Of a stretch of 31,681 nt of DNA, positions 2,145 through 31,551 are shown in pieces. Below the pieces are notes generated by a model. It saw only the letters and a list, made by a program, of their open reading frames with translations. It was not told the DNA's origin and ran no database searches. Made by a program: the position numbers and the translations under genes. This stretch comes from Methanobacteriota archaeon (GTDB lineage Archaea > Thermoplasmatota > Poseidoniia > Poseidoniales > Poseidoniaceae), in assembly GCA_018650165.1 (NCBI GenBank), contig JABIGM010000051.1, forward strand, positions 1 through 31,681, in the 5' to 3' direction. Numbering within the stretch: position 1 is the first letter of the stretch; every line of letters begins with the position of its first letter.

Positions 2145-2489
2145 TCACAAAAATGGTATAATTGCCTTACTGGCCTTTGCAATTTTCAATCTGGCTTTAC
2201 CCAAATTACTACTGCTTGGGCATTGAATTACGATGGTATGTCCCGATTCTAAGCGTGATGCAATTATAGTACAGTCCTCAGCAACTATGGTTACCAGTGG
2301 CGAGTCAGGATTAAGTTCTAGAATCGCAGACATTGAAGTCGGCTTGAATTCATTTGATGTTCTTTCAACAGTGAAGCCTTCTGAATCCAATAGAGATGCC
2401 GAGATAACACACTCTCCATCGACCAGATCTGCAATAATTGCGCTTGCCACAAATTGGTGTGACCAGTGACAGGTGATGACTATTTGCAT
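2145..2489 (-). CDS. Roadblock/LC7 (MglB-like) domain protein
   Basis: 114 aa with a helix - SASLLDSEGFTV - helix - LVTIVAEDCTIIASRL - TIVIQC - SNLGKARLKIAKASKAI pattern, matching the Roadblock/LC7 layout (S/DxxG turn, C-terminal NLG helix). TAATG overlap with the upstream GNAT gene. Confidence 0.6.
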   Translation of the reverse strand: MQIVITCHWSHQFVASAIIADLVDGECVISASLLDSEGFTVERTSNEFKPTSMSAILELNPDSPLVTIVAEDCTIIASRLESGHTIVIQCPSSSNLGKARLKIAKASKAIIPFL

Positions 2490-2974
2490 TAGATATTTCC
2501 ACGCATAACGTAGCCAATACCAGATTTGTAGTAACCACTAAGAGTACCAATCACTTCCAAACCCCTTCTTCTATAGAATTCGATGGCATACTCATTGTCA
2601 CCTCTTACTTCAAGTTGGATCTCTGTGTGTCCGTCCTTTCGTGCAGCTTCCAGAAGTAAATTCCAGGCAGCCGAACCCAATCCCTTGCCTTTGTAGTCAG
2701 AATCAACAGCAAAAGCAACTACTCTAACTCGTGACTTACTGAATTTATTAGCCCATAATAGCCCTCGAAGCATACCATTTTTGTCGCGTAATACTAGATT
2801 ACCGCCCCATTCAGGTATTGGTAGACTTTTTACTGAAGCCTCAGCATATCGTTCACCGGTTTGGTCAAGAAATAATTGTTTGACTATTTCGATGGTCAAA
2901 GGGTCCAATTCTTTTGGACTTGTACCCTCTTCCCAAAGTGCCTCCATTGAACCACCCAGTACGGAACTCTTCAT
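2489..2974 (-). CDS. GNAT N-acetyltransferase, RimI/Ard1-like
   Basis: Acetyl-CoA motif A VVAFAVDSDYKGKGLG and motif B LEVRGDNEYAIEFYRRRG..GYY. ATGA overlap with the upstream gene. Confidence 0.88.
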   Translation of the reverse strand: MKSSVLGGSMEALWEEGTSPKELDPLTIEIVKQLFLDQTGERYAEASVKSLPIPEWGGNLVLRDKNGMLRGLLWANKFSKSRVRVVAFAVDSDYKGKGLGSAAWNLLLEAARKDGHTEIQLEVRGDNEYAIEFYRRRGLEVIGTLSGYYKSGIGYVMRGNI

Positions 2975-5064
2975 CTTTCTTTCTTCTTATACTGGCCGCG
3001 AGTTCCTCGGTTAGACCCAATTGCTCCTAGTTTCCGCATGCCTGCTTTCTTGGAACTTACGCGTTTTTCTTTCTTGGATGTAGGTTCGGATTCAATTGCA
3101 GAAAGTAGACCTGAAATATCACCCAGTGTCATTGGACCAGAGGATTTAGTTTTCGTTTCAGATTTATTATTTCGCGATTTACCTTGATGTCGGCCACGGC
3201 TTTTTTCATGTGAGTGTCCACCACTCTTTTTCCGTAGCCAAGCTTCTAGCCTTCCATTTTCACGGCGCAGTTTGTGCAAATCTCCACGTCGTTGACGTAG
3301 AGCACGCTGAATATTCTGCGTCCTGCGGTCATAGGATTTTGCTTCCCCTGCATTGATGCTCTTATCTTTCAGTAGAGGTTCTGCTTCCAGAAGTTTCGTG
3401 GTTGCCTCATCATGCTTTGTTTCAAAGAGTTTGAGTGCTTTAATTTCCTTTTTCTGTTCGGTTACCAATACAATGAATCGTTGATGCAATTCACTTGCCT
3501 CACGTGCTTTGCCATGCATGGCCTGTAATTCTAGGAACCATGAGAACTGTACCTTTTCACGGGAAAGTGATGGGACTCTATGTATGTCAATTTCTTCAGT
3601 CAGGCGCGTATATACCTTGGCTAATTCATCTTCAATCATATGGATTGGTAGAATTATATCAGAATTGATTTTATCTCTCGATGTTTTGACCTTATCGATT
3701 TCCTTATTTCTTTCTTTAAGATTGATGATGATGGACTTGTGCTCTTTGCGTAAATCCGATGTTTCTTCAATCACGCCCCGCATAGCCTTAGCCATTCTTA
3801 CATTTGATTGACGTTCAGAATCAAGGGCTTGCACGACCTTCTCCACTTCAATCATGTCTGCCTTTGTCTTTTCTAACATCTCTTTGACAAGATCATCCGA
3901 TTTGTCTCTTAAGTCGTGGAAAATATCTGCTGGCTCCATATCTTTTAATCTGTCAGCATCAATAGTTTCACAAATATTTTTCCAAGAAGCGCCCTCACCA
4001 AACAATTTCGTTGCACGAAGCAATTCATCTCTTATTTTCAGTTCACCAACAGCCCTTACCACTCGGCTAAGGTCATGGTCTGGGTTGAAAGGGTCTTCAA
4101 TTGAGAGGTGGTGTTCTCCCATTCTTGGAGGTTTTTCTTTCTGGCTATTTACCACATCAAGTGCTGATGGGGTTTCATTCATCCATCCCTTTTCATCTCT
4201 TGAAAGGGAACTTCCATTCCTGATTGAAATAATTTCAGTCTCCCAATCCATTGTTGCATATGTGTGGAAGAATGAATACAATAGTTCGGCAAGGGTCGTG
4301 TTTAAACGAGTTTCAACCTTTGCATCTTCGTTGATTGTAATATCATATTCCTTATCTCCAATTTTAATAATTGTTCGATCATTGCCGGATTGTAAATTGG
4401 GTATTATCCCTGATTTAATCAGGTGATTGATTACTAATACAGACCAAGCATATGATGACAAAGTACCACCTGGAGCATCAGAAAGATTCCTGTGAAGGGC
4501 CCAGTGTTTGACGCAGACAGCAAGTTGCCGTACTCGTTCATCGAGTTTGGCATATGTCTTCAGCAGTGTAGTATTATGCAGAGCAAGATTGTTATTTATA
4601 GAAATATCAACCTCTTTACCACTTCGTGGGTCAGTGAACTTGACAATAGGCACAGTCGCCCTTGTGAGTGCTTGAACCGCCTCCATGCCTTGTCCGCGAA
4701 GCATTCCGCTAATTCGTTTGACAACCTTCTTCTGATTAGCGCCTGGTAATTGCAGACACAAATCCAAATCTCCAGTCTTTAGTGAAAGTCCACTTTCTGA
4801 AGAACCAAATGGTGTCAACTTAGACCCCTTGAATTTTGAGGAGATGCTCTTTTCCAAATGATTGATTAAACTATCTTTACGCTTGATATCGCCGGTATTG
4901 AATTTATGATTAGAAATAGTGTGCCCTAGTGGCTTATCGTAATTCATTAGTGATTCCTTACTAGGTGTATTAAGTTCCAATTTACCAACAATCTGAGAAT
5001 GAAGGTTAGCAAATAAGTTAACATCTTCGGGAGAGAGGCCTGTAATCTCACAATTGTCACTCAT
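2971..5064 (-). CDS. Cid1/TUT4-7-like terminal nucleotidyltransferase (NTase + PAP-associated domain) fused to a COG1340-like coiled coil and a basic tail
   Basis: Motifs PFGSSESGLSLKTGDLD (D99, D101), VPIVKF, EVDISINNNLALHNT (D153), VKHWA, GTLSSY, LAELLYSFF, ISIRNG, EKGW and SIEDPFNPDHDLSR. Residues ~380-612 are coiled coil and 612-697 are K/R/G-rich. Confidence 0.9.
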   Translation of the reverse strand: MSDNCEITGLSPEDVNLFANLHSQIVGKLELNTPSKESLMNYDKPLGHTISNHKFNTGDIKRKDSLINHLEKSISSKFKGSKLTPFGSSESGLSLKTGDLDLCLQLPGANQKKVVKRISGMLRGQGMEAVQALTRATVPIVKFTDPRSGKEVDISINNNLALHNTTLLKTYAKLDERVRQLAVCVKHWALHRNLSDAPGGTLSSYAWSVLVINHLIKSGIIPNLQSGNDRTIIKIGDKEYDITINEDAKVETRLNTTLAELLYSFFHTYATMDWETEIISIRNGSSLSRDEKGWMNETPSALDVVNSQKEKPPRMGEHHLSIEDPFNPDHDLSRVVRAVGELKIRDELLRATKLFGEGASWKNICETIDADRLKDMEPADIFHDLRDKSDDLVKEMLEKTKADMIEVEKVVQALDSERQSNVRMAKAMRGVIEETSDLRKEHKSIIINLKERNKEIDKVKTSRDKINSDIILPIHMIEDELAKVYTRLTEEIDIHRVPSLSREKVQFSWFLELQAMHGKAREASELHQRFIVLVTEQKKEIKALKLFETKHDEATTKLLEAEPLLKDKSINAGEAKSYDRRTQNIQRALRQRRGDLHKLRRENGRLEAWLRKKSGGHSHEKSRGRHQGKSRNNKSETKTKSSGPMTLGDISGLLSAIESEPTSKKEKRVSSKKAGMRKLGAIGSNRGTRGQYKKKER

Positions 5065-5906
5065 TCCTCTTCACCTCCTGCTTCCTTTTTCGGATTTGTA
5101 GTTCGAGAACTCTTTCTTTCTTTCATGATTGCTTTGGAGGACATTCCGCCATTGCGAACTCTTTCAGCATCAATTACCAAATCATCGAATTCTTCCCTTT
5201 CGACTCGAGTTTTCCAAAACTCCAAAGCATCTTCGCTGGATGATAATGCATCCTCTAGGCGTTTCGTCCTAGAAGTTGACCTACGCCTAACTTCTTCCCA
5301 ACGAACAAAGTCTTCCTGGCTTTCTGCATTAGCACCAACCAGTTCAACCATTGCATCATGTGCTTTTTGTGCCGAATCGAGCAGACTTCTTGCTCTAGTC
5401 CGCGAATCATTCATTTCTTTTACCAATGGTTGGGAAGCAGATCTTTCTGAAACCCACTCCTCATGCTCTCTTATGAGGGATTTCATTTCATTGATGAATT
5501 TCTCTTCTGTTTTGTGGGTGCCGGCACTTGTTTCTAATTGGTTTTCAAGTGACTGCAACTTTTCAGAGAGTTTGTCTTTGGCCCATTTCGGGTCGGGGTT
5601 CTTCATACCCCCTTCTTGAATTAGTTGTTCACGAATTTCATTTGAACGCTCAAACAGGGTGCGCGCTTCTTTTTGAGCCGCATTTCGCTCACCTTTCAGG
5701 TTTGCAACTTTCACATTTATTTCATCACGATTCGCTCTTGCTGATTTTGCTTTTGGTTCAGCTTCAGCCAGCTCGACTTTTCGAGCCTCGAGGTCGTCTG
5801 GAATAATGTCGGCTAAGCGTTCTCTACGGTGCAGAATCGCTTGTGCCAAAAGTTTTGGTGAGACGGCGAGAAGGTCGTTCGCATCCATTGGAATCAATGC
5901 GGCCAC
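5061..5906 (-). CDS. Archaeal coiled-coil protein, COG1340-like (paralog 2); first gene of the operon
   Basis: RDEINVKVANLKGERN, LQSLENQLET..TEEKFINEMKSL and AQKAHDAMVEL. GTG start with GGGAGG upstream (alternative ATG at 5888). ATGA overlap with the downstream gene. Confidence 0.7.
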   Translation of the reverse strand: MAALIPMDANDLLAVSPKLLAQAILHRRERLADIIPDDLEARKVELAEAEPKAKSARANRDEINVKVANLKGERNAAQKEARTLFERSNEIREQLIQEGGMKNPDPKWAKDKLSEKLQSLENQLETSAGTHKTEEKFINEMKSLIREHEEWVSERSASQPLVKEMNDSRTRARSLLDSAQKAHDAMVELVGANAESQEDFVRWEEVRRRSTSRTKRLEDALSSSEDALEFWKTRVEREEFDDLVIDAERVRNGGMSSKAIMKERKSSRTTNPKKEAGGEEE

Positions 5907-31447: not shown

Positions 31448-31522
31448 GGGTCTGTGGGTTAGCTTGGCCTATACTCGGGCGTTTGGGACGCTTGGACTCC
31501 AGTTCAAATCTGGACAGACCCA
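31448..31522 (+). tRNA. tRNA-Pro(UGG), intronless, CCA not encoded
   Basis: Acceptor stem GGGTCTG/CAGACCC, anticodon loop TT-TGG-GA, T-arm TCCAG-TTCAAAT-CTGGA, discriminator A. Confidence 0.95.
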
Positions 31523-31551
31523 CCTTCCACTACTAATCTGGCTGTAGGCAT

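What the first reader, a model, noticed from the sequence alone, without database searches (positions are those of the whole stretch)
4060..4110. Nucleotide-recognition loop predicts UTP specificity (TUTase rather than poly(A) polymerase)
The loop reads EDPFNPDHDLSR, with His330 encoded by CAT at 4075-4077. It aligns gap-free to Cid1 EDPFEISHNVGR, placing His330 at the uracil-selecting His336 and Arg334 at Arg340. TUT4/7 also have this His, whereas the adenylating GLD-2 and Trf4 types lack it (established knowledge, recalled). The prediction is RNA uridylation, which I do not know to have been described in archaea.
Basis: partly seen in the sequence, partly recalled or inferred. Interest (0 to 1): 0.78.

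Follow-up and report, generated by a model that had tools for sequence, protein, structure and literature searches.

The report
Archaeal Cid1/URT1-type RNA uridylyltransferase, His loop
A marine Group II archaeon carries an intact enzyme of the eukaryotic type that adds U residues to RNA 3' ends, with the uracil-selecting histidine conserved, so RNA U-tailing probably occurs in these ocean archaea, although no activity has been measured.

Summary
The ORF 2971-5064 (minus strand, 697 aa) reads EDPFNPDHDLSR at residues 323-334, and His330 is CAT at 4075-4077. The loop aligns without gaps to Cid1 IEDPFEISHNVGR and URT1 IEDPFETSHDLGR.

- **Family:** residues 40-360 are a Cid1/URT1/TUT4-7-type nucleotidyltransferase. 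The best solved relative is Arabidopsis URT1 (E 8e-43), and the model (pLDDT 95.9) matches URT1, Cid1 and TUT7 at TM 0.82-0.85.
- **Conservation:** the catalytic Asp triad and the equivalents of Cid1 N171, S211/Y212, D330 and R340 are near-invariant in 135 archaeal homologues. His is kept in 124 of 131; the others have Val, Arg or Ile.
- **Distribution:** within a Thermoplasmatota sample the domain occurs in only one family, apparently Poseidoniaceae.
- **Origin:** it groups with URT1-like proteins of algae. It sits on the N-terminus of a helical protein that stands alone in the same operon slot in genomes lacking the domain.

UTP preference is a well-supported prediction, not a result, because exceptions to the His rule are published. 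I found no paper describing this in archaea. This scan has already reported the same family on two other Group II genomes.

The parts
2971..5064 (-). Whole gene: 697-aa fusion of a Cid1/URT1-type nucleotidyltransferase with a helical domain and a basic tail
   Evidence: ORF and translation. About 690-aa orthologues are found in many Poseidoniales genomes.
3985..4947 (-). Catalytic (palm) plus central (PAP-associated) domains, residues 40-360
   Evidence: PF22600 at 3.5e-29 and PF03828 at 4.7e-14. URT1 8e-43 and Cid1 1e-37. AF2 model pLDDT 95.9, with Foldseek TM 0.85 to URT1, 0.85 to TUT7 and 0.82 to Cid1.
4801..4806 (-). G87-S88 of the hG[GS] motif (Cid1 G89-S90)
   Evidence: Conserved in 128-129 of 135 sequences; the rest are gaps except one divergent member.
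4762..4770 (-). D99-L-D101, the first two catalytic aspartates (Cid1 D101, D103)
   Evidence: Alignment to Cid1 and URT1. Invariant except in the degenerate member P0204.
4606..4608 (-). D153, the third catalytic aspartate (Cid1 D160)
   Evidence: Conserved in 133 of 135 sequences.
4570..4575 (-). N164-T165, equivalents of Cid1 N171-T172 and URT1 N558, which contact uracil O2 and the ribose
   Evidence: Asn in 133 of 135 sequences. Role taken from PMC9561377.
4450..4455 (-). S204-Y205, equivalents of Cid1 S211-Y212; the Tyr stacks on the incoming base
   Evidence: Conserved in 133 of 135 sequences. The role assignment comes from established Cid1 structures, recalled.
4063..4098 (-). Nucleotide recognition motif loop EDPFNPDHDLSR, residues 323-334
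   Evidence: Within the family E, D, P, the His-adjacent D and L, and R334 are near-invariant.
4075..4077 (-). His330 (CAT), at the position of Cid1 His336, URT1 H714 and CutA Arg557
   Evidence: Codon confirmed. His in 124 of 131 family members. Selectivity role from PMC7498324 and PMC9561377.
3220..3984 (-). Helical (antiparallel coiled-coil) domain, residues 361 to about 615, with conserved blocks near 462-520 and 597-611
   Evidence: AF2 on alignment A2 gives long helices with pLDDT about 90. There is no Pfam or NCBIfam family and no specific fold match. It is homologous to stand-alone 274-436-aa genes in the same operon slot of genomes that lack the transferase domain.
2974..3219 (-). Low-complexity K/R/G/S-rich tail, residues about 616-697, with one short conserved helix (TLGDISGLL)
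   Evidence: Translation, conservation profile and pLDDT below 50. RNA binding is an inference only.
5061..5906 (-). Upstream 281-aa coiled-coil gene whose stop overlaps the transferase start (ATGA at 5061-5064)
   Evidence: Syntenic in all 12 Poseidoniales loci examined.
2489..2974 (-). Downstream GNAT acetyltransferase (RimI-like, below the family cut-off), whose start overlaps the transferase stop (ATGA at 2971-2974)
   Evidence: PF00583 at 1.4e-14. TIGR01575 scores 53 bits against a cut-off of 86. Syntenic.
2145..2489 (-). 114-aa gene that follows in the operon, with no recognised family
   Evidence: No Pfam or NCBIfam hit. Weakly conserved and syntenic.

Best explanation
The gene encodes an active, template-independent RNA 3'-terminal ribonucleotidyl transferase of the Cid1/URT1/TUT4-7 type, and it most likely prefers UTP.

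**Shown here**
- The Pol-beta palm carries G87-S88 and the Asp triad D99/D101/D153, as needed for two-metal catalysis.
- A PAP-associated central domain is present.
- The base pocket matches those of solved TUTases position for position. N164 corresponds to Cid1 N171 / URT1 N558. Y205 is the stacking Tyr212. D324 and N327 correspond to D330 and E333. His330 is at the uracil-selecting His336 / URT1 H714. R334 corresponds to R340.

**Inferred**
- UTP is selected through hydrogen bonds from His330 and N164 to the uracil, and short U tails are added to RNA 3' ends.
- The C-terminal helical domain ties the enzyme to the co-transcribed coiled-coil, GNAT and small proteins, and the basic tail helps hold RNA.

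**Evolution**
- The catalytic module is of eukaryotic type and is closest to URT1-like proteins of marine algae.
- An ancestor of one Poseidoniales family, apparently Poseidoniaceae (MGIIa), appears to have acquired it once.
- It was fused onto the N-terminus of a pre-existing helical-protein gene of a conserved operon.

Targets and physiological outcome are unknown.
For: - **Family and fold:** PF22600 scores 102 bits and PF03828 52.8 bits, both above cut-off. The PDB sequence ranking is URT1 150 bits, then TUT4 134, Cid1 133, TUT7 124, CutA 123, GLD2 105, TUT1 67, mtPAP 60 and Trf4 34. The AF2 model has pLDDT 95.9. Foldseek gives URT1 E 1.2e-24 with TM 0.85 and TUT7 TM 0.85 with rmsd 2.0. UTP-bound URT1 (6l8k, TM 0.77), Cid1 (TM 0.82) and GLD2 (E 6.5e-19) also match.
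- **Loop:** gap-free alignment to Cid1 and URT1.
- **Conservation in 135 archaeal homologues:** D99 in 129 and D101 in 130, the rest being gaps except in P0204. D153, N164, K186, S204 and Y205 are each present in 133. D324 is present in 132, His330 in 124 of 131 and R334 in 126.
- **Nearest non-archaeal homologues:** nearly all carry EDPFxxxH[DN]LG[R/S/A]. They are eukaryotic and include a Porphyridium protein that its source record names 'UTP:RNA uridylyltransferase 1' and a tick 'TUT7-like' protein.
- **Literature on the His:**
- **Genuinely archaeal:** the same operon position in 7 genera, including a closed 2.06-Mb chromosome. GC and GC3 are like the neighbouring genes.
- **Fusion:** genomes without the domain carry only the helical gene in that slot.
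- **Single clade:** SH-aLRT 100, and it groups with 8 algal-type rows at 98.
Against: - No activity has been measured, and no U-tailed archaeal RNA is known.
- The His is not an absolute determinant. TUT1/Star-PAP, NPOL-1 and MUT-2 have it yet add A, any nucleotide or UG, and Cid1 itself adds A in vitro.
- The CutA R557H mutant did not become a pure U-adder.
- The Cid1 K197 position, which I recall as a triphosphate contact, is Leu190 here and varies in the family. R192, two residues later, is invariant.
- Cid1 E333 is Asn here, and D, N or E across the family.
- No eukaryote-type reader of U tails was found. The genome's RNB protein is bacterial RNase R-like and does not co-occur with the transferase at genus level. 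No LSM-domain gene was found in this 80%-complete genome.
- About 5% of orthologues have Val, Arg or Ile in place of the His.
Confidence: 0.65

Rival explanations
1. It is an active RNA tailing enzyme, but in the cell it adds mainly A or mixed tails. On this view it acts as a non-canonical poly(A) polymerase despite the His.
For: There are published exceptions to the His rule. TUT1/Star-PAP has the His and adds A, and NPOL-1 and MUT-2 accept purines. Cid1 adds both U and A in vitro. Known archaeal tails are A-rich and made by the exosome (established knowledge, recalled), and RNase PH-domain genes of the kind found in exosome subunits are present here.
Against: All of the closest characterised relatives (URT1, Cid1, TUT4/7) are U-adders. 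The adenylating GLD-2, mtPAP and Trf4 are clearly more distant. The complete uracil pocket, not only the His, is conserved.
Confidence: 0.2
2. It is a C/U-adding enzyme of the CutA kind that makes short pyrimidine tags.
For: CutA is nearly as close as Cid1 (123 bits, TM 0.81-0.84), and the two active sites are reported as nearly identical. Some archaeal lineages carry Arg at the selectivity position, as CutA does. These are EDPFDLTRDLSS in G146 and proteins P0120, P0123 and P0124.
Against: This protein and 95% of the family have His, not Arg. Cid1, which has His, has no activity with CTP.
Confidence: 0.08
3. The transferase domain is catalytically idle and serves only as an RNA- or protein-binding module of the helical-protein complex, or it acts on a substrate other than an RNA 3' end.
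For: One divergent family member (P0204) has lost the G-S motif and the catalytic aspartates but keeps the architecture. TUT4/7 also carry an inactive N-terminal copy of the module, with loops of the EDPFSxKRN type.
Against: In this protein and about 99% of the family every catalytic and NTP-binding residue is retained across genera that are 40-50% identical. That pattern fits selection for catalysis.
Confidence: 0.05
4. The gene is eukaryotic contamination or a binning artefact, not an archaeal gene.
For: Its nearest relatives outside the family are all eukaryotic. One hit lies in a MAG labelled as the bacterium Salipiger.
Against: The gene overlaps its archaeal neighbours by 4 bases at both ends. 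Its composition matches theirs. It sits in the same operon in 7 genera and at least 80 species genomes, including a closed chromosome. It is also fused to a domain whose stand-alone form is archaeal.
Confidence: 0.01

Closest known systems
Arabidopsis URT1 (UTP:RNA uridylyltransferase 1; PDB 6L3F, 6L8K, 7XS4)
   Same: It is the best sequence match (E 8e-43, 150 bits over residues 59-356) and the best fold match (E 1.2e-24, TM 0.85). It has the same two-domain catalytic module. The NRM reads IEDPFETSHDLGR against IEDPFNPDHDLSR here. The uracil-contacting Asn and His (URT1 N558, H714) are both present.
   Different: In URT1 the module is C-terminal, behind a long disordered region, and the enzyme acts on poly(A)-tailed mRNAs and miRNAs. 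Here the module is N-terminal and fused to an archaeal helical domain and a basic tail, and the host has neither eukaryote-type poly(A) tails nor miRNAs. Identity is only about 32%.
S. pombe Cid1 poly(U) polymerase (PDB 4FH3, 4EP7 and others)
   Same: E 1e-37 and TM 0.82. The loop aligns without gaps, placing His330 on His336 and R334 on R340. The catalytic D101/D103/D160, N171, K193, S211/Y212 and D330 all have identical counterparts.
   Different: Cid1 K197 is Leu190 here, and E333 is Asn327. Cid1 is a stand-alone catalytic module without a coiled-coil extension.
Human TUT4/TUT7 catalytic module (PDB 5W0N, 8OPT)
   Same: 134 and 124 bits, with TM 0.85 and rmsd 2.0 to TUT7 bound to UMPNPP and U2 RNA. 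The NRM contains a His.
   Different: TUT4/7 are 1,500-aa multidomain proteins with zinc knuckles, an inactive second module and Lin28-dependent recruitment. None of that is present here.
Aspergillus/Thielavia CutA, a C/U-tagging enzyme (PDB 6YWN-6YWP)
   Same: Same fold, with TM 0.81-0.84 and 123 bits. The active site is reported as nearly identical to that of Cid1.
   Different: CutA has Arg557 where this protein has His330. Only minor archaeal lineages carry Arg there.
GLD-2/TENT2 and Trf4/PAPD5-type non-canonical poly(A) polymerases
   Same: Same superfamily and the same two-domain module (GLD2 105 bits, TM 0.79; Trf4 34 bits).
   Different: They are more distant. Their sequence alignments stop before the NRM at query residues 286-297 (the TUT4 and TUT7 alignments stop there too), and they lack the selectivity His (PMC6240794).

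Membership tests
Cid1/URT1/TUT4-7-type non-canonical ribonucleotidyl transferases (TENTs; Pfam PF22600 + PF03828) | Pol-beta-type palm with the hG[GS] motif and the DxD...D catalytic triad | tested here: met
   PF22600 at 3.5e-29. G87-S88, D99, D101 and D153 align to Cid1 G89-S90, D101, D103 and D160 and are invariant in the family.
Cid1/URT1/TUT4-7-type non-canonical ribonucleotidyl transferases (TENTs; Pfam PF22600 + PF03828) | PAP-associated (central/fingers) domain following the palm | tested here: met
   PF03828 scores 52.8 bits against a cut-off of 22.6, over residues 257-330. It is the only such match in the genome.
Cid1/URT1/TUT4-7-type non-canonical ribonucleotidyl transferases (TENTs; Pfam PF22600 + PF03828) | Two-domain fold superposable on solved members | tested here: met
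   The model has pLDDT 95.9 and pTM 0.93. TM is 0.82-0.85 to URT1, Cid1 and TUT7.
TUTase subgroup (UTP-selective) | Histidine in the nucleotide recognition motif at the Cid1 His336 position | tested here: met
   His330, with a gap-free alignment. Present in 124 of 131 family members.
TUTase subgroup (UTP-selective) | Other uracil/ribose pocket residues (Cid1 N171, Y212, D330, R340) | tested here: met
   N164, Y205, D324 and R334 are present and at least 96% conserved. Placement is by sequence alignment and whole-domain superposition, not by inspecting model coordinates.
TUTase subgroup (UTP-selective) | Cid1 K197 position (recalled as a triphosphate contact) | tested here: not met
   Leu190 here, and variable in the family (L, S, F, M, R and others). 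An invariant Arg (R192) lies two residues downstream and may substitute, which is an inference.
TUTase subgroup (UTP-selective) | Preferential UMP incorporation onto RNA 3' ends | not testable with these tools
   This needs an enzyme assay or 3'-end sequencing.
CutA-type C/U-adding enzymes | Arg at the selectivity position (CutA Arg557) | tested here: not met
   His330 here. Arg occurs only in minor lineages: P0120, P0123, P0124 and G146.
GLD-2/Trf4-type non-canonical poly(A) polymerases | NRM without the inserted His | tested here: not met
   The His is present. These enzymes are also more distant in both sequence and fold rankings.
COG1340/DUF7121-type archaeal coiled-coil proteins (for the C-terminal half) | Significant sequence match to the family or to the neighbouring DUF7121 gene | tested here: not met
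   The C-terminal half has no Pfam or NCBIfam hit. BLASTP against the two neighbouring coiled-coil proteins gives E 0.38 and 1.2. No profile-profile comparison was run.

The most novel reading that the evidence does not exclude
One major family of planktonic ocean archaea (apparently Poseidoniaceae/MGIIa) marks RNA 3' ends with non-templated U. It would do so with a eukaryote-derived TUTase module, probably taken from a marine alga, that has been wired into an archaeal helical-protein/acetyltransferase operon. This would be the first uridylation-based RNA-marking system outside eukaryotes. The family also carries natural variants at the selectivity residue (His to Arg, Ile or Val) that may write different tails.
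Probability: 0.5. Interest if true: 0.8.

Novelty: new variant of a known kind. Interest (0 to 1): 0.66.

Why it matters
RNA 3' uridylation by Cid1-type enzymes is treated as a eukaryotic way of marking RNAs for decay or processing. The archaeal tailing I know of (recalled) is A-rich and made by the exosome. An intact enzyme with a full uracil pocket, kept for a long time in an abundant group of marine archaea, makes 'do prokaryotes U-tail RNA?' a directly testable question.

The material for the test is well suited:
- a compact catalytic module that models with high confidence;
- an obvious point mutant (H330N/A/R);
- natural Arg, Ile and Val variants;
- sister lineages that have the same operon without the enzyme, which serve as built-in negative controls for metatranscriptome 3'-end analysis.

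It is also a clean example of a eukaryote-to-archaeon transfer followed by fusion to a host protein.

Tried and rejected
- **U-tail reader (Dis3L2 type):** the genome's RNB protein is bacterial RNase R-like (best PDB hit E. coli RNase R at 3e-54, with Dis3L2 far lower). Its genus-level distribution does not follow the transferase: g1 has 3/10 against 10/10, g3 has 29/31 against 5/31, and g7 has 0/2 against 2/2. I dropped it as a partner.
- **LSM/Sm reader:** PF01423 was not found in this 80%-complete genome. No conclusion can be drawn.
- **C-terminal half as a COG1340/DUF7121 paralogue:** there is no Pfam or NCBIfam match, and BLASTP against the neighbours is not significant. Foldseek gives only generic antiparallel coiled coils such as SMC arms and SH3BP5, with E no better than 7e-3.
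- **The 114-aa gene as Roadblock/LC7:** there is no Pfam or NCBIfam support.
- **Compositional trace of transfer:** none was found. The transferase part has GC 0.406 and GC3 0.347, like its neighbours.
- **Prokaryote-wide survey:** the single genome-contig scan used a pattern that contains the His and lists only the best 80 of 123 relatives. All 80 are Poseidoniales-type, so it says nothing about other phyla or about members without the His.
- **Rooting the tree:** GLD-2 and Trf4-type outgroup sequences were not among the sequences retrieved. 'Nested within eukaryotes' therefore rests on distribution, not on a rooted tree.
- **Not done:** I did not run complex prediction, because UTP is not an offered ligand and I make no binding claim. 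I did not inspect model coordinates, for which there is no tool.
Full report
**1. Observation**

The window's minus strand carries a 697-aa ORF at 2971-5064. Residues 323-334 read EDPFNPDHDLSR. His330 is CAT at 4075-4077 and Arg334 is CGA at 4063-4065.

In phmmer alignments against PDB sequences this stretch aligns without gaps to Cid1 IEDPFEISHNVGR and to Arabidopsis URT1 IEDPFETSHDLGR. These lie inside domain-wide alignments of E 1e-37 and 8e-43. The same holds when only residues 300-362 are used as the query.

**2. What the protein is**

Pfam places residues 50-172 in PF22600 (MTPAP-like palm, 102 bits). Residues 257-330 fall in PF03828 (PAP-associated, 52.8 bits against a cut-off of 22.6).

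The ranking of solved relatives by sequence score is as follows:

| Solved relative | Score (bits) |
|---|---|
| URT1 | 150 |
| TUT4 | 134 |
| Cid1 | 133 |
| TUT7 | 124 |
| CutA | 123 |
| GLD-2 | 105 |
| TUT1/Star-PAP | 67 |
| mtPAP | 60 |
| Trf4 | 34 |

An AlphaFold2 model of residues 40-360, built on a 52-sequence alignment, has mean pLDDT 95.9 and pTM 0.93. Foldseek places URT1 first (E 1.2e-24, TM 0.85). UTP-bound URT1, Cid1 (TM 0.82), TUT7 with UMPNPP and RNA (TM 0.85, rmsd 2.0) and CutA follow. TUT1 and GLD-2 come later.

I aligned 135 archaeal homologues. Cid1 numbering below comes from counting along the alignment.

| Position here | Cid1 equivalent | Conservation in the family |
|---|---|---|
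| G87-S88 | G89-S90 | 128-129 of 135; the rest are gaps apart from P0204 |
| D99, D101, D153 | D101, D103, D160 | 129, 130 and 133; the rest are gaps or P0204 |
| N164-T165 | N171-T172 | N in 133, T in 131 |
| K186 | K193 | 133 |
| S204-Y205 | S211-Y212 | 133 |
| D324 | D330 | 132 |
| R334 | R340 | 126 |
| N327 | E333 | D, N or E |
| L190 | K197 | Variable; R192 two residues on is invariant |

The one divergent member, P0204, has lost the G-S motif and the aspartates.

**3. The histidine**

His330 is present in 124 of the 131 homologues that cover the loop. Four have Val, three Arg and two Ile, and all of these keep the catalytic triad. The substitutions follow lineages. The genus represented by G146 has EDPFDLTRDLSS, and the genus represented by G102 has EDPLDIDIDLGR.

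The nearest non-archaeal homologues almost all read EDPFxxxH[DN]LG[R/S/A].

- H336A/N converts Cid1 from a poly(U) to a poly(A) polymerase (PMC7498324).
- CutA, the C-preferring relative, has Arg557 at this position, and R557H raises U incorporation (PMC7498324).
- URT1 N558 and H714 make direct hydrogen bonds to the uracil (PMC9561377).
- Non-canonical PAPs with the His insertion use UTP (PMC6240794).

The rule has published exceptions (bioRxiv 10.1101/422972):
- Cid16, PUP-3 and F43E2.1 add U without the His.
- TUT1/Star-PAP, NPOL-1 and MUT-2 have the His and accept purines.

UTP preference is therefore a strong prediction, not a certainty.

**4. Whose gene is it, and where did it come from**

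*The host is archaeal.* The window encodes PurP (DUF1246/DUF1297), a DUF7121 coiled-coil protein, a DtxR-type repressor and other typical archaeal genes. Close homologues come from Poseidoniales / 'Candidatus Poseidoniaceae' MAGs, many of them tagged MGIIa.

*Distribution.* In an even sample of 201 genomes of the order, PF03828 is found in 67 of 99 genomes of family f1 besides this one. It is found in 0 of 99 of family f3 and 0 of 2 of f2. In a 401-genome sample of the phylum, the protein is found in 43 of 58 f1 genomes and in none of the roughly 340 genomes from the other families sampled. Within f1, genus g3 mostly lacks it (5 of 31), and so does g6 (0 of 2).

*Which family is f1.* G003 is the closed 2,064,136-bp MG-II chromosome CM001443.1. 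Together with the record titles, this suggests that f1 is Poseidoniaceae (MGIIa) and that f3 is probably Thalassarchaeaceae. This is an inference, because the group codes cannot be matched to names directly.

*A gap in similarity, then eukaryotes.* An exhaustive HMMER search of 1.84 billion representatives shows a clear gap. The full-length archaeal members (about 670-730 aa) score E 1e-59 or better. The next full-length hits, from E about 1e-47, have the module in a different architecture. Those that carry names are eukaryotic:
- Coleochaete
- Phalansterium
- Basidiobolus
- a tick protein named 'TUT7-like'
- a Pavlovales haptophyte
- a Porphyridium protein that its source record names 'UTP:RNA uridylyltransferase 1'
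- Galdieria
- Hildenbrandia

Of two unnamed relatives I checked, one lies on a contig that also carries PsaO. The other lies on a contig with sparse, short called genes, which I read as eukaryotic.

*Trees.* The archaeal sequences form one group in a FastTree of 142 rows (support 100). They do the same in an IQ-TREE (LG+C20 PMSF, quick search) of 60 rows (SH-aLRT 100). In the IQ-TREE they group with eight algal-type rows at 98, with the Pavlovales protein and P0145 nearest at 88. The trees are unrooted. The direction of transfer, eukaryote to archaeon, rests on the distribution: one archaeal family against a broad range of eukaryotes.

*Composition.* GC and GC3 of the transferase part match the neighbouring genes, so the transfer is old.

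**5. Fusion into a conserved operon**

The gene's start overlaps the stop of an upstream 281-aa coiled-coil gene (ATGA at 5061-5064). Its stop overlaps the start of a downstream GNAT gene (ATGA at 2971-2974).

The gene order is coiled-coil, transferase, GNAT, a small protein, DUF7121 coiled-coil, PurP. On the other side lie an 804-aa protein, DtxR and further genes. This order is identical in seven genera; in two of the loci the small protein was not detected.

Five genomes lack the transferase domain: two of g3, one of g6 and two of family f3. In these the same slot holds a 274-436-aa gene that matches only the C-terminal half of this protein (E 3e-4 to 1e-43). The rest of the operon is intact.

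So the operon and the helical protein are shared across the order, whereas the catalytic module is an N-terminal addition seen in only one family. The absences in g3 and g6 may be losses, but I did not resolve this.

The C-terminal half has conserved blocks. It models as long antiparallel helices (pLDDT about 90) followed by a disordered K/R/G/S-rich tail. It has no Pfam or NCBIfam family and no specific fold match. It shows no significant BLASTP similarity to the neighbouring coiled-coil proteins.

**6. Mechanism proposed**

*Shown.* The protein has an intact two-metal Pol-beta active site and a uracil pocket that matches URT1 and Cid1 position for position.

*Inferred.* UTP binds with the uracil stacked on Y205 and read by N164 and His330. 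UMP is transferred to an RNA 3'-OH held in the cleft between the two domains. The helical domain anchors the enzyme to operon partners, and the basic tail adds RNA affinity.

*Unknown.* The targets, tail length and consequences are all unknown. I looked for a reader of U tails and found none. The RNB protein is RNase R-like and is not co-distributed with the transferase. LSM was not found in this incomplete genome. Three RNase PH-domain genes, of the kind found in exosome subunits, are present.

**7. Rivals**

| Explanation | Confidence |
|---|---|
| UTP-preferring RNA 3' transferase (best explanation) | 0.65 |
| A-adding or mixed tailing despite the His | 0.2 |
| CutA-like C/U tagging, more plausible for the natural Arg variants | 0.08 |
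| Non-catalytic role or a different substrate | 0.05 |
| Contamination, excluded by synteny and the fusion | 0.01 |

**8. Novelty**

Full-text searches found nothing on Cid1-type enzymes or uridylation in archaea, or on such a transferase in Poseidoniales. Reviews describe the family as eukaryotic. Public records name the orthologues only 'hypothetical', 'DNA polymerase sigma' or 'nucleotidyltransferase domain-containing protein'.

Within this scan the same family has already been reported from two other Group II genomes, e1-1165165 and e1-3531587, with the same closest known relative. The discovery is therefore not new to the scan.

This report adds five things:
- residue-level conservation of the selectivity loop;
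- the natural His-to-Arg, Ile and Val lineages;
- restriction of the catalytic domain to one family, not the whole order;
- the unfused helical gene in the same slot of genomes without the domain;
- the grouping with URT1-like proteins of marine algae.

I class it as a new variant of a known kind: a known enzyme type in a new domain of life, with a new architecture.

Noticed in passing
L024:8923-9780, L025:8738-9562, L026:4918-6228, L027:7662-8726, L028:7457-8491: In Poseidoniales genomes without the transferase domain, the slot between the coiled-coil gene and the GNAT gene holds a 274-436-aa gene. It is homologous only to the C-terminal helical half of the window's protein. The g6 version (436 aa) is about 100 aa longer than that half; I did not examine it for remnants of the lost domain.
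   Followed up: partly
G000:C60:10984-12048 (L007:1108-3186, minus): A 692-aa RNB-domain protein resembles bacterial RNase R (E. coli RNase R, 3e-54). In the order sample the RNB domain is found in 84 of 99 genomes of the window's family and in 0 of 99 of the sister family. At genus level it does not track the transferase.
   Followed up: yes
P0204 (693 aa, JGI metagenome): This divergent family member keeps the architecture and the loop His, but it has lost the G-S motif and all three catalytic aspartates. It is a likely pseudo-enzyme.
   Followed up: partly
L021 (G146) and L022 (G102) transferase ORFs; P0059-P0062, P0120, P0122-P0124, P0084: The selectivity His is replaced in particular lineages by Arg (as in CutA), Ile or Val, with the catalytic residues intact. 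These lineages may write different tails.
   Followed up: partly
window 2145-2489 (-): The 114-aa gene that another first-stage note calls Roadblock/LC7 has no Pfam or NCBIfam match at E <= 0.1. It is only weakly conserved between genera (E 1e-4 to 1e-8).
   Followed up: partly
L105 (CAXQWT010000045.1); L049 and L054: One contig carrying the archaeal transferase is filed under a MAG named Salipiger bermudensis, a bacterium. Two more are filed under 'Thalassarchaeaceae'. These are probably binning or labelling errors, because none of 99 sampled genomes of the sister family had the domain.
   Followed up: no
G000:C37:21748-22910 and G000:C4:8022-8411: The genome has three RNase PH-domain genes: an adjacent pair, as expected for exosome Rrp41/Rrp42, and a third copy elsewhere.
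   Followed up: no
window 31448-31524 (+): tRNA-Pro (TGG) lies at the end of the window. No Rfam family reached its gathering score anywhere in the window.
   Followed up: no
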